From positions 41,850,001 through 41,914,000 of the forward strand of contig OZ024756.1 in NCBI GenBank assembly GCA_964016885.1: 64,000 nucleotides of DNA. Direction: 5' to 3'. Below are positions 316-9,900 of this stretch, piece after piece. The notes under the pieces were generated by a model. That model saw only the letters and a program-made list of their open reading frames with translations. It was not told the origin of the DNA and did no database searches. Position 1 is the stretch's first letter, and each line of letters opens with the position of its first letter. Origin of the DNA: Eledone cirrhosa. Its lineage: Eukaryota. A program made the position numbers and the translations under genes.

Positions 316-480
316 CAAGCATGGGCAACCTTTTTCAAGCAATGGACCGCAGAGCTTGTGGCTCATCATAAGGCGGACTGCACTACCAAAATATTCAAGG
401 CAATTTTGAAATTAGGCGTCCCACTTCAGAAAGCCAAACGGGCCGCATGCGGCTCGCGGGCTGCAGTTTGCCCATGACTA
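316..480. mobile_element. hAT/Charlie-type MITE inserted in a SINE
   Basis: TIRs caagcatgggcaa / ttgcccatgacta; 8-bp TSD ttctaacg (308-315) / ttctaatg (481-488). Confidence 0.75.
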
Positions 481-879: not shown

Positions 880-937
880 ATGGCGGTGTTGTTAATTCGT
901 TCTCTCCGAACTGGATTTTCTTTAAGAATTATTTTAG
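880..937 (+). CDS. COQ9: COQ9 exon 1 (MAVLLIRSLRTGFSLRIIL-G), putative mitochondrial targeting peptide; candidate first exon shared with GLMN
   Basis: ATG at 880 in context TCAATGG; donor AG|GTAGGT at 937/938; phase 1 matches the exon 2 acceptor at 7994. Confidence 0.78.
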
Positions 938-3900
938 GTAGGTTAAATATCTTTTAATTAATAATTAATTAACTAATCATCCTTGCTTTTAGAAAAAATA
1001 CTTATAAAAATATTTTCGCATTTAATATCTGTAGAAGCCGTAAAAACTCTCAGTATTGCTTCAAGGTCTTGTGTGTTTCTTGTGGTTGTCAGAAATATTT
1101 CACTAACATTTACCGGCTATCTCACATATCTAGATATTTAGTAATCGAATCATTGCTGTTTTATTTCTTAAGTTATTTTTTCTAACTGCTGTACTTATGA
1201 CGTGACGAAAATAACCTAACTGTAACCGTACTAAATTGCTGTAGTTATATAATTAAAGAGCATTTTTAATCTTCAAGGTTTCCCTGTTTACACACATGCA
1301 TACATGTATTATATATATATGTGTATGTAAAAGGTAAACAGAAATAACAACACAATCAGTACAGTATATGGAAGGGATATATTAGGTTAACGCTTGATAT
1401 AGCCGGAAGAGGGTCTGTTTTCATTTACAGAATACTTTCAATTTGTGTCTCGAAGCTATACAGTACTAATATAAGGTGGGGGAAAAGGGGGTGTAAGATC
1501 CACACGCCACAAGGGCGCTGGAGTTTCCCCTTTAATAATATTTTAGACAAGACAGACTCACAACATTGCTGCAGGTGATAGCGAGGCTGCGACACTGGAA
1601 TAACTAAGCACCACTCGCGGACATCACCTGTTACCTTGGTAAGATGAGTCACCAACAAGGACAACTTAATAGCTAGCGACCCGGCTCTCCCCAAACGACT
1701 CTAACGCCACAAGCTGGACAAAATTATATATATATATATATATATATTAAAATAACAGATTAAAGTTTAAGCAAAGAATCGCTGCTTTCACCCTTAACGG
1801 GATCTTCTAGGGTTCTTATATATTTATCCTTATCGAACCCTCTTTTGATTTTACTCTTCACATTTATTATTATTACTATATATATAAATATAAAATAACT
1901 CTACGTATAATGTACGTGTATGCTGAACACTTATTTTTACCTGGATTTAAGATTATTTTTATTTACTTTTAAAATATATTATTTTAAAAAATCAACAATT
2001 TGCAAGGAGAAAGTTAAGAAAGGGAAAAAAGAAAGCAACAAACAGAATACAATAAAGTGTAGAAGGAAGAGCACTGTGTTAGACCTTTTCTTAGTCTCGT
2101 AGACCAAGGGTTTAAAACATAACTAAATGAATTATCGATGTCTCTATCTTTTCCAGCGTCCCTTGGAAGTATTAATGGTAAATTTACAGAACATCTCTCC
2201 CCCGTTCGGTGGGAATTTTTTCCTGTTTTTTTTTTTATTTTTCCCTCCTGTTTTCAACGAATCTGACCTCTAAATACGTTAGAATCGACTCTCTTATTTT
2301 ATTATTATTTTTATTTATTATTTTTTAGAAAACGGAGATTGGTCGACTCTCAGTTTTGCAAAAAAAAAAATGTATTTAATTCTCACCAAACGAGAAAAAA
2401 GTGTGGTTCTGTAAATTTCACATTAATAATTTTATTTTCTCTTCACAAACGAAAGTATTCAATAATGAAAGTAAAGTAAATATATGACACCATATTGCTA
2501 GTTAGATACGATAAATCTCGGTCAGAATTATATTCGCTGAAATGGACTCTAGTTTTTCATTGGTACTTTATTTTATCAACCTCAAGTCTGAAGATTCATT
2601 AAACCAGTGCTTATCCTGGTTCACTTTAGCATTAAGCAACTAAGATATGTAACTCATCCCTAGACAGGATGCCAGACAATCACAGAGTTACCCCCCCCCC
2701 CCTTCCTCCAGTTATTACTGGTATTCATTTTATGTTGAGTATACTGTAGCAATGTAAAATGAAGTGGTTTGGCTCAAGAACACAACACAGCTTGGTACAA
2801 GAATCAAACCAATTTAATAACATTTTCTTTTTCTTTTCTTTTTTTAATGTAATTCTTTTAATTTATTTCTCCAGGACTATTCCATCTCTAGAACTGTTTC
2901 TATATGTTATGACACTGACTTGATTAGCCTGCTTCAATGGATGTGCAGTGTTGATGTGTGTAGACGAGAAAGTATGGATGTGCAGTGTTAATGTGTGTAG
3001 ACGAGAAAGTATGGATGAACTGGGAGAAAAACTGGGTATCAGAGGAATCAGAGGTAGTGTGCAAGAAAGGAGACTGTGCTTGTATGGACATGTGGTGTGC
3101 ATGGATGATGATCTTTGGGTGAAAAAGTGGCAGGAAATCCCAGTGGAAGGAAGCCAGAGTAGAGGAAGACCTGGGTGGGGGTGGTGAGAACTGATCTAAG
3201 ATTACTGAAGCTCATAGAGGAGATGGTTTGTTAAAAAGGAATTGTCTAACCCATGCAAGCATGGAAAAGCAGACATAAACTTGATGTTAAGCAACTAACA
3301 TAAAAGCTCCTTCATATGCCCATATTTCGTGTTATGTGGTCCATATTGTGCTGTTCCCTCAGTAAAACTTTATTAGTTAGCATCCATGTTCAGTTGAGTA
3401 AATGTTTTATTAATTAGATGTGAATTGGAAAAAAGTCATGTTGGATCCATTGTTTCTTTTGTAATACATATTTCTACTTATCAACAATTTAAGGATGAAA
3501 TTTGTTAATTATGTAATGAAATATTGATTTTAAGGGGTGAAACACTTGCTTGGGTGGGGTCACTGAAGACTTTCTACTATATTACATATCCAATTTATTC
3601 TATGTATTACATATTCAAACATAATGGATCCAGTTTGATGCTTTCCTTTTGTATTTCAGATATTCACTAAAGCTGTCCAGTTGGTACCAACATTGTGAAT
3701 TGTTTTCTCTCAAGATGGATTCCTCACATGAAACTCCTGTCAAAATAGATTGTCTTAGTTCATTATATGACCAAATTAAAGAATGCCTCTCTTATTGCGA
3801 TGCCAAGGGACTTGCTACTTATGTGCTAGATGAAGATCTTTCAGAACAGGCTTTATTTTTTGACTTAACAAGTGATATTGTTCATTGTCTGACACAGAAA

Positions 3901-6900
3901 AACCTTGAACAGAATCCTGAATTCTTTAAAACATGTGAAAATTGTCTCGCTCATTTCATTAAGAAAGGCAAACCACGTGTCTTATTACTTGCAATCTTAG
4001 AGAACTGGGGAGATCTCAAAGATGACACACAGTTCAAATCGGTCCTTCAACCCATTTGTGACTGCCTCTTAAAATTTCCAAAACCTTGTATGTCCTCTTT
4101 AGAAAACAGTTTACAAGCAATATATCGGTATATCTCTTCCCTGGAACTTCCTGACAATAATGCATTAGAAGAAGAGGAAAAGAAGTTGTTTGAAAATGAT
4201 CTTGTTGTTCGGAGACTTACAGATGTTGTCCTTGCAACTCTTGATTTCACGAAACCTTTTGTTGAAGCCGTTTCTATAAAGAACAGAAATAACCAGCAGG
4301 CATATCAACCATTACAGGCAAACCTTCTCAATTGGTATCTGTTGGCATTACTTAATAAACCTCTACTTTTTCTCCATTTAGCTTCCCCAGCTAATGAGAA
4401 GTCAGCTAAATCAGAAAGTTACTTATGTGCTGAAAAACTCTTTTCCCAACTAGCGTGTCTTCATCACGATTTTCTCCAGATTGCCGAAGACTCTCTTTTT
4501 TACAATCGCACCTTAAAATTAAATAAAGGAAAATTAGATAAAGGAAAACTGAGAGATAAAGATGATGATGATGATGATACAAAAACTGAGGAACTTGAGA
4601 AAGGTTTAACTGAGGATGGAAACACAAAAGAAGTTGGTGAGGAAGAAGATTCCAAAGCTCCAATTCCAGAATTATCCATAAGCTGTTTACTGTATTTAGT
4701 TTTCTCAGAAAATCTAAATATTGACAGTATACGCTGTGTCTATTCTCCAAGATATATATTTGAATATAATATACCATTTATTCTTCAGCTTCTTGAGTCT
4801 TCTCAGTCTCTTGTCTTGTATAAAGGTTTGCATTTAACCAACAGCTTTTTGCAAAAAATTGAATCTTATACACTGCTACCAGTATTTTTTGAAAATGATT
4901 GTTACCTCCAACTGCTGACCAGTTTAACCAAAGTGATGTTGCACTGTTCCCTCCAAACTTTCCGTAAACTCTCTGTCAATATTTTCACAGATGTTATTCG
5001 CCTGTTTCAGTCAGCAGGTCGTTATCGAGCCTACAATTCTTTGTTAGCAAGTTGTGAAAATCCTGGTGTTCTCGGTTATTGTATCCAGTTAATTAAAGAT
5101 GAGGTCGATGTCTGTTTAAAGGAAGATCCGATACAGGATCACACTTTCCTTGGTGAGAACTTACTGAAGCTGCTTCGAGTTATTATTCACCTACCAGAAG
5201 CTGAAACAACAGATATACTCCAACATTCCGATCAAATCTTTTCCTCAATGAACTTCATACGCTATCTTATATTGAGAGATCCCCGTTCTAAAAATATCTC
5301 TGGGTTTTGGAGTTTGGAGAATAAATTAAGGACACAATTCCTTTCCCCTCTTCAGATGGCTTTAGATATGTCTAGAGCTCACTATAAACTTGAATTAAAT
5401 AATGTCCTGCATGGAGAAGATTTAAAGAAGGATAAACCAGAGATGACAGTGAACGTTGGGAACCAGGTGTTACCTAACCTTCCACCTGATCAGTTAGTTC
5501 AAGTATTCAACAATGCTTTGAATACATTTGATATGATGGGTTGTGTGTTGTGTCGTATTAATGAACTTCTAGATCAACAAACCTCTGCTACTGCCATAAC
5601 ATCAAACAGTTGACAAGCTAGATCAAACCAATCTCCACAGTCATAACATCTGTTACCTTAAACAGTTGACAAGCTAGATTAAACCAATCTCCACAGTCAT
5701 AACATCTGTTACCTTAAACAGTTAAGCTAGATTAAACCAACCTCCATCACAATCATAACATCTGTTACCTTAAACAGTTGACAAGCTAGATTAAACCAAC
5801 TTCCACCACAGTCTGGACATCTGTTAAGTGAAATAGTTGACAATTTAAAATGAACACAACAAAATATTCTTCCATTATCTGCTTCAAAATATTGAAAATA
5901 AAATTTCTATTTAACCAAAAGTCATTTGTTTTTCTTTTCTAATTTGTTTCCAATCACTACTAATCATAATATTTCTTGATATCATCATCATCACCGTTTG
6001 ATGTCTATTTTTCATGCTTGAATGAGTTAGGTGGGTTGTCATGTTTTGAGGATTGACTACCCAGGTGACCATGTCTTGCTTATATGTCCCATTTTGGGGT
6101 TGGTTTCTACAGCTGGTGACACTGCATATGTTTATCCTCATGTCTTAGAGGTTCAATATGTAATGACCAGTACCTTACATATAAAAACAAGTGTTAGTGT
6201 CAGGAGGGGCCTCTGGGCTCTACAATACTACCTCAGAAAGTTTCATCTGACCCATGCTGCTTGGAAAAGCAGGCATAAAATTAAATATGGTGATGATGAT
6301 ATTCCTACAACTTTGAGCATTATTTTTGGTGCTAATTATGATAGGGCATGAATGAAAAGCTGGGTGTAAGAAGAATCAGATGTGTACAGGAAACTACAGT
6401 AGAGGATGACCAGGGCAGAGTGAAAAACTGGGTATAGTATGATAGGAATCAGATGTAGTTTGTAGGAGAGAAGACTGCACTGGTATGGACATGTAGTGTG
6501 TAGGAGAGAAGACTGCACTGGTATGGACATGTAGTTTGTAGGAGAGAAGACTGCACTGGTATGGACATGTAGTGTGTAGGAGAGAAGACTGCACTGGTAT
6601 GGACATGTGATGTGTAGGAGAGAAGACTGCACTGGTATGGACATGTGATGTGTAGGAGAGAAGACTGCACTGGTATGGACATGTGATGTGTAGGAGAGAA
6701 GACTGCACTGGTATGGACATGTAGTTTGTAGGAGAGAAGACTGCACTGGTATGGACATGTAGTTTGTAGGAGAGAAGACTGCACTGGTATGGACATGTAG
6801 TGTGTAGGAGAGAAGACTGCACTGGTATGGACATGTGATGTGTGGATGATGATTGATGGGTGGAGAAGTGCCAAGGAATCCCCATGAAAGGAAGCTGCAG

Positions 6901-9900
6901 TAGAGGAGGACCCCGGCAGAGGTTATGAAAGCTGATCCCAAATCATTAAAGGCTCATTGTGGAGGTGATGAGTAGAGAGATGCTGTCCTGAAAACGACAC
7001 ATCCAACCCATGCAAGCATAGAAAAGCAATCATAAAATGATTATTATGATGGAGAAATTGCACATGTTTTTGTACATGAATTTATCGATTTTCGTATTTC
7101 ATTATATTAAAAAGGTAAAAGTAAAAGGGCCCTTAACTGCTGGTAGTCTTAGGGACACCGTCCTGAAATGTGGCACATCTTGAACATTTTAAAATCTGTT
7201 TAATGATGAAAGCATTAAAATATGCTGATAGCAATATCTGAAAACTAAATTTTTCAGTGAGTAACCAATCACCTCAGCTTTCTCAGCCACTGTGACTTTT
7301 AGGATGGTATTTTACTACCCAGCCTTAACTCTTAAAGTCCTACACCACATGAAGCTTCATTAGCAAGACATTTTTAAAATGTAACAAAAAAAAACAAAAA
7401 ACAGCACAATAGCTGCATCACATTAAATATTAAAGTCTTTATTCTAGATCTACACATTTCCACAGAAATCTGTACAGTAATAAAGATATTATAAACATTT
7501 GAATTAAACCCCCTACTTTGCATTTTTAAAGATATTATCTGTTAAATCATTACAAGATGTTAAAAGTTTTAAACTAAAAAAAATACCTACCAAACTATAA
7601 ACAAGATATTTCAGTACATGGAAACTACAAAAATATTCAATGACAGAAACAAACATTACCAGTCTGAGAGGAGATCTTGAAACTGGTGGTTATAAAACTA
7701 CCAATATTAGAGATACAATATACTGTTAAAGATCTACCAATACCTGGAGGCCATGATAATAGTCAACAACAGAAACATTTAACTGTTTTGTATCTGTCCT
7801 TGTTTTTCTTATTTTTACTTCTTTTACCTTCATTTTCCCTTTTCTTTCTCTTGTTTTTTTAATTTTTTTTATTGTAAATGGATGTTAGATATTTCTCCTA
7901 ATCCATCATGGCTGACTAACTCTAAACGGACATACAAATTAATGAAATATATACAGTAAATAAATAGATAAGTAGGATCTTGTTTTATTGCAGGTCGATC
8001 TCCAGGAGGATTAGTTAAATGCCAAGGTACAAGGGCTCTTAGTACAGATGATGAACACACAAAGGAGCAAGCTGCAGCCCCTAATGCGTAAGTACCAAAA
8101 CCTCTTCTCTTGCTTGTATGTGTGTGTATGCCTATGTATCTGAAATGGTAGTGCTGGTGCCACAAAAATGCTCCCAGTCTATGCTGTAAAGTGGTTGGCA
8201 CCAGTGACATCGCAACTCATTTCTATAGCTGAGTAAACTGGAGCATCTTGAAATAAAGTGTCTTGCTCAACACCCTAACAACACAAAACATGACAAATCT
8301 TATCCTTAAGCCTTTAGCATTTAAACCAGACATATAGGGCCAGAATTCTCTCACCTCTTTCTGTTCAAACCGGCCATAACTGGCCACTCATACTGACGTT
8401 AAGATATTGTTCTCAAAATAAATAACATCAAAATCTCATAAATTCAATATTATATGAGGTAAACCCTTCACTGTGAAAATACAATAGTAAATATAGAGTA
8501 ATGTAAATGTTAAAGGGTTAAAACAAAATGATTGTTTTGTCTATCATTTGCAGTCCTGTGTCAAATGACAGCCACGACAATGGAAACCAATCTGATGAAG
8601 ACATTAAACAGAAAATATTAGCAGCATCACTGCAGTTTGTCCCAGTGCATGGATTTTCAAAAAAAGCTCTTATAGAAGGTAAAATTCTTTCTTTTTATAT
8701 TTCAGTGTTTAGAATTTTCCAGAAAGTCATATTAGTAACTAAGTAATTTAATTGTAAGTAGCAAATTGGCAAAATTGTTAGGACATCGGATAAAATCCTT
8801 TGTGATATTTGTTTCTGTTATGTTCCCTAAATACTCCGTTGTATTTCAAAGTGCTGAAATTGTGGGATATCCAGGTGTTAGCCCTGTTATGTTTCCTAAA
8901 TACTCCCTGTTGTATTTCATGGTGCTGAAGTTGTGGGTTAGCCCTGTTATGTTTCCTAAATACTCCCTGTTGTATTTCATGGTGCTGAAGTTGTGGGTTA
9001 GCCCTGTTATGTTTCCTAAATACTCCCTGTTGTATTTCATGGTGCTGAAGTTGTGGGTTAGCCCTGTTATGTTTCCTAAATACTCCCTGTTGTATTTCAT
9101 GGTGCTGAAGTTGTGGGTTAGCCCTGTTATGTTTCCTAAATACTCCCTGTTGTATTTCATGGTGCTGAAGTTGTGGGTTAGCCCTGTTATGTTTCCTAAA
9201 TACTCCCTGTTGTATTTCATGGTGCTGAAGTTGTGGGTTAGCCCTGTTATGTTTCCTAAATACTCCCTGTTGTATTTCATGGTGCTAAAGTTGTGGGTTA
9301 GCCCTGTTATGTTCCCTAAATACTCCCTGTTGTATTTCAAGGTGCTGAAGTTGTGGGATATCCAGGAGTTAGCCATGGTATGTTCCCTAAAGGAGGTGCT
9401 GACCTTGTGAATTATTTCTACCAAGACTGCAACAAGAAACTGGCTGAAAACCTAGAAAAGAAATGTCAAGATATGGATGAAAGGTAACAACTATCATTTC
9501 ACCTTTTTTAGATCTTCATTAAACCCCTTCATTATATTTAACACCTGGGGTGCCACTAAACTGGAGATAATGCCTGATACACTACTACAGCTTTTGTAAA
9601 ACAGTATTACAGCCAGATGCCCTTCCTGACACCAACCCTTTTAGTAGCCTTTTACACAAGGATACTGTCTACCTAGTCTTAAAATGGGGCTACATGTGAT
9701 TTTGTGGTAACAGAGATAAAACAGTGATGACCACATGGCCACTTATACACCTCATTTCTTCATTTATTGTTAACCATTCATCATCTAAAGTCTGTCTCAA
9801 GCCCAGAATCTCCTCAGGCCGGTACTTATCCCAGTTTCTGTGGCATGAAGCAACTGAGAGTACAAGACTCCCACTGGACAGGACACCAGTCCACCACAGA

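What the first reader, a model, noticed from the sequence alone, without database searches (positions are those of the whole stretch)
880..7993. One promoter, two unrelated genes: intronless GLMN nested in COQ9 intron 1 as an alternative terminal exon
Seen: a complete 632-aa glomulin ORF lies on the same strand inside the 7-kb COQ9 intron 1. It has a strong acceptor (ctttccttttgtatttcag, AG 3658-3659) 55 nt before its ATG and its own AATAAA (5897). The only clear upstream exon/donor I can find is COQ9 exon 1. Splicing 937 to 3660 gives MAVLLIRSLRTGFSLRIIL-D-I-H-stop (TAA 3668-3670), a 22-codon uORF ending 44 nt before the strong-context GLMN ATG. Known: COQ9 is a mitochondrial ubiquinone-pathway lipid-binding protein; GLMN binds RBX1 and inhibits cullin-RING ligases; vertebrate GLMN is a separate multi-exon gene. 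Inference: each transcript makes either COQ9 or GLMN by 3' splice-site and poly(A) choice, linking CoQ synthesis to ubiquitin-ligase control, with GLMN translated by reinitiation or leaky scanning.
Basis: partly seen in the sequence, partly recalled or inferred. Interest (0 to 1): 0.88.

Follow-up and report, generated by a model that had tools for sequence, protein, structure and literature searches.

The report
Glomulin gene borrowing COQ9's first exon
An intron-free gene for the ubiquitin-ligase inhibitor glomulin sits inside the first intron of the mitochondrial gene COQ9 and is spliced onto COQ9's first exon, and the same nested layout occurs in distant animals, so the two unrelated genes have likely shared one promoter since before molluscs and insects split.

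Summary
Confirmed and extended. An intact 632-aa glomulin ORF (3715-5613) lies in intron 1 of a nine-exon COQ9. One RNA-like run shows exon 1 joined to 3660 (GLMN) and to 7994 (COQ9 exon 2); three DNA-like runs are unspliced there. In GLMN mRNA, COQ9's targeting-peptide exon becomes a 22-codon uORF ending 44 nt before the GLMN ATG.

The layout is old, not an octopus oddity. O. sinensis GLMN and COQ9 are named isoforms X1 and X2 with consecutive accessions. Five insect gene models fuse GLMN to COQ9. In 4 of 9 metagenome loci, COQ9 exons follow an intron-free GLMN; three loci have a phase-1 exon-1 candidate upstream, and the uORF frame stops earliest in 7 of 7 loci examined.

Not shown: start site, 3' end, translation mode, any functional CoQ-ubiquitin link. 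Shared first exons are a known kind (unc-17/cha-1, NUP62/IL4I1, FlyBase pairs), and this scan met the layout before with other gene pairs in arthropods. This pair appeared in none of my paper searches.

The parts
880..937 (+). Shared exon 1, coding part (58 nt, phase 1): first 19 residues of COQ9's predicted mitochondrial targeting peptide; most of a uORF in GLMN mRNA. Its 5' end is not mapped.
   Evidence: 15 of 21 residues match the N-terminus of Octopus COQ9 P0026; 3 Arg, no acidic residue; joined to 3660 and to 7994 in X4; one copy in the genome
938..7993 (+). COQ9 intron 1 (7056 nt), holding the GLMN exon
   Evidence: GT..AG; junction 937^7994 read from the loose end
3640..3659 (+). Pyrimidine tract and 3' splice site of the GLMN terminal exon
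   Evidence: joint in X4; no X4 cover at 3538-3657
3660..3714 (+). GLMN leader: last uORF codons, stop TAA 3668-3670, then 44 nt without ATG
   Evidence: the uORF is out of frame with GLMN (113 nt from ATG to ATG)
3715..5613 (+). Intron-free glomulin ORF, 632 aa, start with A at -3 and G at +4
   Evidence: covered by one X4 contig 3658-5654; the only GLMN found in the genome
5604..5843 (+). 56-bp tandem repeat (4.2 copies) at the start of the GLMN 3' UTR, with ATTAAA at 5678, 5731 and 5790
5897..5950 (+). Candidate GLMN poly(A) signal AATAAA with a T-rich stretch downstream; use not shown
   Evidence: sequence; X4 depth already low here
7994..12539 (+). COQ9 exons 2-9: 7994-8087, 8554-8678, 9342-9483, 10137-10224, 10661-10765, 11556-11711, 12326-12379, 12501-12539 (stop)

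Best explanation
COQ9 exon 1 is spliced either to an intron-free glomulin exon inside intron 1 or to COQ9 exon 2, so that what is likely one promoter yields two unrelated mRNAs, in a layout likely inherited from the common ancestor of molluscs and insects. Shown (one run): both junctions. Read from the sequence: on the COQ9 path exon 1 starts the targeting peptide; on the GLMN path it runs into a stop four codons past the junction. Inferred: the GLMN path ends at an intronic poly(A) site near 5810-5920; ribosomes reach the GLMN ATG by reinitiating after the 22-codon uORF or by scanning past the exon-1 ATG (T at -3 here, a purine at -3 in L006, L008 and L011, which favours reinitiation as the general route); the early stop is kept because it avoids a mitochondria-targeted or overlapping product and leaves 44-68 nt before the GLMN start. 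The pair most likely persists because GLMN has no promoter of its own and both genes are needed broadly, not because the two proteins work together.
For: Both junctions in X4; its GLMN contig enters only through exon 1, with no cover at 3538-3657. DNA-like X1-X3 have unbroken pieces across 937/938 (600-1339, 600-1336) and 3251-5600. One copy each of exon 1 and GLMN in the genome. 4 of the 150 best COQ9 cluster representatives carry GLMN in front of COQ9: Epargyreus, Anticarsia, Glossina fuscipes, Molorchus, plus a G. palpalis cluster member; the Anticarsia and Epargyreus models lack the first 8-10 residues of a stand-alone COQ9 relative. 4 of 9 metagenome loci (L006, L007, L010, L011) have an intron-free GLMN followed on the same strand by an in-frame, phase-1 COQ9 exon 2; L006, L008 and L011 have an ATG-led phase-1 exon of 58, 58 and 40 nt upstream of GLMN. 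The phase-1 frame stops earlier than both other frames in 7 of 7 loci; the chance is about 0.3 per locus in shuffles, so about 0.009 for four lineages or 0.003 for five.
Against: One RNA-like run, kind not on record; contigs drop rare variants, so a minor GLMN-only promoter is not excluded. The short side of the joint is 28(+2) letters and the tool marks 'between: not known'. No contig upstream of 908, so a start between 883 and 907 that removes the uORF is possible. Exon 1 and acceptors in the metagenome loci are predictions without RNA; I picked them by eye, and the scoring rule that re-picked all seven was written afterwards (margin 10.2 against 10.0 in L006 and L008). L006/L008 leaders hold an extra ATG. 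5 of 9 loci show no COQ9: L008, L009, L012 and L013 end within about 1 kb of GLMN, and L014 is a multi-exon GLMN with none in about 8 kb downstream. In L009 I saw no ATG in the 198 bases before the one upstream donor that I noticed. The fly genes CG30493 and CG30496 are absent from the 11 searchable supplement files of FlyBase's 2015 catalogue of shared-exon and dicistronic genes. The insect fusions are gene models and show order and strand only.
Confidence: 0.8

Rival explanations
1. GLMN has its own promoter in intron 1 that makes most of its mRNA, and the splice from COQ9 exon 1 is a side product.
For: Only one run was seen; contigs drop rare forms; scattered X4 intron cover of depth 2-3.5 at 2928-3095 and 3387-3537; the fly pair is not in FlyBase's 2015 shared-exon list.
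Against: The X4 contig over the whole ORF begins with exon-1 letters and has no second entry at 3660; no cover at 3538-3657; NCBI names O. sinensis GLMN and COQ9 isoforms X1 and X2; the exon-1 frame stops early in 7 of 7 loci.
Confidence: 0.1
2. The pairing is a regulatory switch: splice choice and uORF-dependent initiation set the ratio of COQ9 to GLMN by tissue or stress, coupling CoQ synthesis to cullin-RING ligase activity.
For: Layout kept between octopods and insects; early stop and 44-68 nt spacing kept in 7 loci; NUP62/IL4I1 shows that such a locus can be regulated by cell type (PMC1198218).
Against: No tissue or condition data; no paper held both terms; human GLMN is a 19-exon gene (PMC12907513) and lies apart from COQ9 (recalled); the scan reports the same layout for other unrelated housekeeping pairs (unchecked), as expected of lock-in.
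Confidence: 0.2
3. GLMN is a cephalopod-era retrocopy that captured COQ9's promoter and replaced its parent.
For: Intron-free ORF, single copy, no parent found; human GLMN has 19 exons.
Against: The same nesting with an intron-free GLMN in insect-like and other animal loci and fused models in three insect orders; no A-tail remnant and no flanking repeat over 8 bases in the stretches compared. An old retroposition remains possible.
Confidence: 0.03
4. The junction is an assembly artefact or comes from a processed DNA copy.
For: Run kind not on record; short side under 31 letters; the joint tables were cut (121 rows not shown).
Against: The joint falls exactly on the predicted GT..AG pair; a 30-letter overlap is what a branch in a 31-letter word graph leaves (inference); DNA-like runs are continuous; exon 1 has one genomic match.
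Confidence: 0.03

Closest known systems
Cholinergic gene locus, unc-17/cha-1 (VAChT/ChAT); PMC3875643, passages read
   Same: [quoted passage not shown]
   Different: There the shared exon is untranslated and the two products act in one pathway. Here the exon codes for the host's targeting peptide and becomes a uORF for the guest, and no shared pathway is known.
NUP62/IL4I1 in mammals; PMC1198218, abstract and first part of the Discussion read
   Same: Two unrelated proteins from one promoter through shared 5' exons; the nested gene has its whole ORF in one terminal exon; retroposition proposed.
   Different: Described for eutherian mammals; IL4I1 has a second promoter and the shared form is limited to testis and brain; a likely remnant of the parent exists. 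Here no parent was found and the layout spans phyla.
FlyBase shared-exon pairs, e.g. Su(var)3-9/eIF-2gamma, Ada2a/Rpb4; PMC4528330, passages and rows of File S2 read
   Same: [quoted passage not shown]
   Different: The coding-overlap pairs keep the shared residues in frame in both proteins, and several are marked as not conserved outside insects or Drosophila. Here the shared codons are discarded by a stop, and octopods and insects share the layout. CG30493/CG30496 is not listed (file 1 not searchable).
UTP14b in ACSL3 intron 1 and UTP14C in ALG11; PMC5750009, passages read
   Same: Single-ORF gene inside a host gene; UTP14C shares a splice junction with its host.
   Different: Lineage-limited, testis-expressed retrocopies whose parent survives.
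Retrogene replacement, amphioxus SYCP1; PMC5803294, abstract read
   Same: A single-exon ORF is the only copy and takes its promoter from a neighbour.
   Different: SYCP1 uses a bidirectional promoter and a new 5' UTR, not a host's coding exon.

Membership tests
Glomulin (GLMN/Alf4/YAP, PF08568) | Family profile match and full-length likeness to named glomulins | tested here: met
   PF08568 82.8 bits, cut-off 25; 83-84% identical to Octopus glomulins; 4f52_E at E 1.7e-72
Glomulin (GLMN/Alf4/YAP, PF08568) | RBX1-binding surface kept | tested here: inconclusive
   Human K425, N476, L567, R574 are recalled as contacts (the structure paper is not held). Window K461 and N513 are invariant in A2 and align with the first two; Met stands for L567; the Arg is kept. 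Binding was not tested.
COQ9 | COQ9_N and COQ9 domains in an intact multi-exon frame | tested here: met
Shared-first-exon nested locus (cholinergic type) | Guest gene inside host intron 1, same strand | tested here: met
Shared-first-exon nested locus (cholinergic type) | Both mRNAs carry the same first exon | tested here: met
   one run
Shared-first-exon nested locus (cholinergic type) | Shared exon is untranslated | tested here: not met
   It encodes the conserved COQ9 N-terminus
Shared-first-exon nested locus (cholinergic type) | One transcription start serves both | not testable with these tools
   Contigs show no starts; nothing laid upstream of 908 at 98%
Shared-first-exon nested locus (cholinergic type) | Products act in one pathway | not testable with these tools
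   No paper with both terms
Retrogene with promoter capture (NUP62 or SYCP1 type) | Intron-free ORF where other species have introns | tested here: met
   L014 is multi-exon
Retrogene with promoter capture (NUP62 or SYCP1 type) | A-tail remnant or target-site duplication | tested here: not met
   not expected to survive in an old insertion
Retrogene with promoter capture (NUP62 or SYCP1 type) | A multi-exon parent is ancestral | not tested
   No outgroup gene structures were available; direction of change is open
Dicistronic mRNA | Both full ORFs on one mature mRNA | tested here: not met
   The COQ9 junction skips GLMN, and X4 depth falls to about 2 after 5819 and 0 at 6213-6400; weak, as contigs show presence, not absence
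uORF-controlled mRNA | Short upstream ORF ending before the main ATG, no ATG between | tested here: met
uORF-controlled mRNA | uORF is translated and changes main-ORF output | not testable with these tools
   needs ribosome profiling or reporters

The most novel reading that the evidence does not exclude
An operon-like splice switch older than the mollusc-insect split, in which one mitochondrial targeting exon serves as COQ9's presequence on one path and as a regulatory uORF for glomulin on the other, so that cells trade coenzyme Q assembly against cullin-RING ligase inhibition by 3' splice-site choice and by the state of translation initiation.
Probability: 0.15. Interest if true: 0.82.

Novelty: new variant of a known kind. 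Interest (0 to 1): 0.6.

Why it matters
It is a shared-exon gene pair kept between phyla, whereas several catalogued fly pairs with coding overlap are marked as limited to insects, and the shared exon does two jobs: targeting peptide for the host and uORF for the guest. It offers a test of why such pairs last (lock-in or co-regulation), possibly in Drosophila, where one P insertion is an allele of both COQ9/CG30493 and CG30496 (PMC4978919; CG30496 as glomulin is recalled, not verified). In practice, knock-outs or promoter edits of COQ9 exon 1 in these animals would also hit GLMN, and gene predictors fuse the two into false proteins.

Tried and rejected
No RNA holder was listed for the stretch; X4 was judged RNA-like from its joints and empty intron bins. 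Two word-based protein searches with GLMN gave only 4 clusters, at 49-80% identity, so GLMN gene structure in bivalves, gastropods and Nautilus was not reached. P0002 (53% identical) lies on a 214,640-base contig, but its introns could not be checked. The first metagenome scan confirmed 0 of 323 stretches; the second, with insect sequences in the alignment, 9 of 283. A second GLMN copy: none; the one extra match (E 0.44, with a stop) was dismissed; searches used a stricter first look and are floors. An in-frame exon 1-GLMN fusion was rejected for the window (out of frame by both the 3660 acceptor and the AG just before the ATG). The GLMN tree could not name L007, L009, L010 or L011, and named COQ9 hits gave no margin. 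A back-calculation from bin means puts the COQ9-junction contig near depth 80 against 21.2 for GLMN; it assumes nothing else lies in those bins and the tool warns against ranking by depth, so it is not used as evidence. Paper searches with no hit: glomulin+COQ9, glomulin+intronless (35), octopus nested/shared exon (58), glomulin+Drosophila+synteny (77). The glomulin structure paper is not held. Rules on reinitiation are recalled, not read. The Atlas search only returned the family. No complex was predicted, as no binding is claimed. Earlier scan notes had nothing by sequence for either protein.
Full report
Observation. The window holds a 632-aa ORF at 3715-5613 that matches the glomulin family (PF08568, E 2.6e-23) and is 83-84% identical to named Octopus glomulins; a profile of nine cephalopod-like sequences finds one solved chain, human glomulin. 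Around it lies COQ9 in nine exons from 880 to 12539, all introns GT..AG, 286 aa, 232 of 286 identical to Octopus COQ9. Exon 1 (880-937) matches the N-terminus of that protein at 15 of 21 residues and has the make-up of a mitochondrial presequence (3 Arg, no acidic residue; the role is predicted). Joining 937 to 3660 gives a 22-codon ORF ending at 3670, out of frame with GLMN, with no ATG in the 44 nt that follow. The genome gave one match each for GLMN, a COQ9 exon and exon 1; two of these searches were floors.

Splicing. Four runs from one study hold the stretch, none on record as RNA. X1-X3 cover intron and exons alike, with unbroken pieces across 937/938 and across 3251-5600, as DNA does (its joint table was cut). 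X4 differs. At 98% likeness it shows two joints; one is 935>3658, GT..AG with the cut two bases right, which is 937^3660, in a 2025-letter contig of depth 21.2 that runs to 5654. A loose end behind 939 reads window 7996-8025, which is 937^7994. Nothing covers 3538-3657. So in this sample the GLMN contig is entered only from exon 1. The short side is 28(+2) letters, below the tool's 31 for a bridging record; I read the 30 letters as the overlap left at a branch point of the assembly graph (inference). No contig was laid upstream of 908, so the start site is unknown. The 3' end is unresolved: depth drops after about 5820, before AATAAA 5897, in a tandem repeat that carries three ATTAAA.

Other octopuses. 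I infer that NCBI merged the O. sinensis pair as one gene; I did not see the gene records.

Age. Among the 150 best of 3242 COQ9 representatives, 4 carry GLMN sequence in front of COQ9. They are gene models from two lepidopterans, a tsetse fly and a beetle, with a second tsetse model in the same cluster. These are most likely prediction fusions, but they need GLMN just 5' of the COQ9 body on the same strand; the two lepidopteran models start COQ9 at residue 9-11 of a stand-alone relative, as if a short first exon lay elsewhere. A metagenome scan then gave nine GLMN loci. Six have one long ORF (572-662 aa). In L006, L007, L010 and L011, COQ9 exons follow on the same strand, beginning with an acceptor and an open phase-1 frame. 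L006, L008 and L011 have upstream an ATG-led exon candidate of 58, 58 and 40 nt that ends in phase 1; L006 and L011 thus show the whole layout. L008 and L009 end too soon to show COQ9. L012 and L013 have a split GLMN on short contigs, and L014 a multi-exon GLMN with no COQ9 in about 8 kb downstream. On a midpoint-rooted tree L006/L008 fall with the insects (92/93), L007 and L009 with the cephalopod-like set (97/96), and L010/L011 apart; long branches make this unsure and the organisms are unnamed. Two independent insertions into the same intron are unlikely, so the layout probably predates the mollusc-insect split (inference). In the fly, one P insertion is listed as an allele of both CG30493 and CG30496 (PMC4978919, one table row); CG30493 is COQ9 (PMC5455201, passage); that CG30496 is glomulin is recalled. 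Against this, neither name occurs in the 11 searchable supplement files of FlyBase's 2015 catalogue.

The uORF. After the candidate GLMN acceptor, the frame set by a phase-1 exon stops at codon 4 (window), 12, 12, 3, 3, 4 and 2, always earlier than the other two frames, and 44-68 nt before the GLMN ATG (L012-L014 were left out because no single-ORF start was defined). In L006 and L011 this frame is the GLMN frame, so only the stop prevents a presequence-GLMN fusion. Shuffled leaders put phase 1 first about 3 times in 10, giving about 0.009 for four lineages or 0.003 for five. Only the window's acceptor has RNA support; a pyrimidine rule re-picked all seven but was written after I had chosen them.

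Mechanism. Transcription most likely starts upstream of 880. The exon-1 donor pairs either with 3660, making GLMN a terminal exon cleaved in the intron, or with 7994, removing GLMN with the intron. GLMN is then made by reinitiation after a short uORF or by leaky scanning; the weak context at 880 (T at -3) allows scanning here, while the purine at -3 in three other loci favours reinitiation (rules recalled). Glomulin's role as an inhibitor that masks RBX1 comes from PMC6730887 (passages); nothing here ties it to CoQ. Lock-in is the simpler reason for the pair's survival; co-regulation is the bolder one.

Comparison. The kind is known: unc-17/cha-1, NUP62/IL4I1, UTP14 retrogenes, 130 fly genes with shared 5' non-coding exons and 10 pairs plus a triplet with shared N-terminal codons; a mammalian catalogue finds same-strand nesting about as common as opposite-strand (PMC11694760, passages). 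Earlier notes of this scan describe the layout for COP1/LAP3, ALG6/BolA2, NAA38-APC10/XPG and ITFG1/GTF3C4 in arthropods (unchecked). What differs here is a shared exon that codes for the host and is discarded as a uORF by the guest, kept across phyla. No paper with this pair turned up; subscription journals were not searched. Verdict: real, a new variant of a known kind, interest 0.6.

Noticed in passing
window 8877-9357: A 60-bp unit, 8 copies, repeats the 3' splice site and first bases of COQ9 exon 4. Seven copies have TG where the last, used copy has AG at 9340-9341.
   Followed up: partly
window 3700-3714: A second pyrimidine-rich AG sits directly before the GLMN ATG; splicing exon 1 to it would also be out of frame. 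X4 shows no use of it.
   Followed up: partly
window 5604-5843: The 56-bp tandem repeat starts in the last GLMN codons and supplies three ATTAAA hexamers that could move the 3' end upstream of AATAAA 5897.
   Followed up: partly
window 1310-1416 and 1779-1885: Two short stretches of a very abundant dispersed repeat (summed contig depth over 500,000 in X1-X3), in opposite orientation, inside intron 1; related pieces seem to lie near 16850 and 17550.
   Followed up: no
window 318-478: Short element with inverted ends that looks like a miniature DNA transposon (by eye).
   Followed up: no
L006 6186-6260 and L008 2890-2967: The candidate GLMN leader holds a second ATG three bases after the acceptor, opening a further short ORF.
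   Followed up: no
P0124 and P0058: Other predicted proteins join COQ9 to a SWIRM/JAB protein or to an RNA-polymerase Rpb3-type subunit on its C-terminal side; probably fused neighbours in gene models.
   Followed up: no
window 41600-41810: A run of N (assembly gap) inside a long simple repeat; the rest of the window is mostly microsatellite.
   Followed up: no
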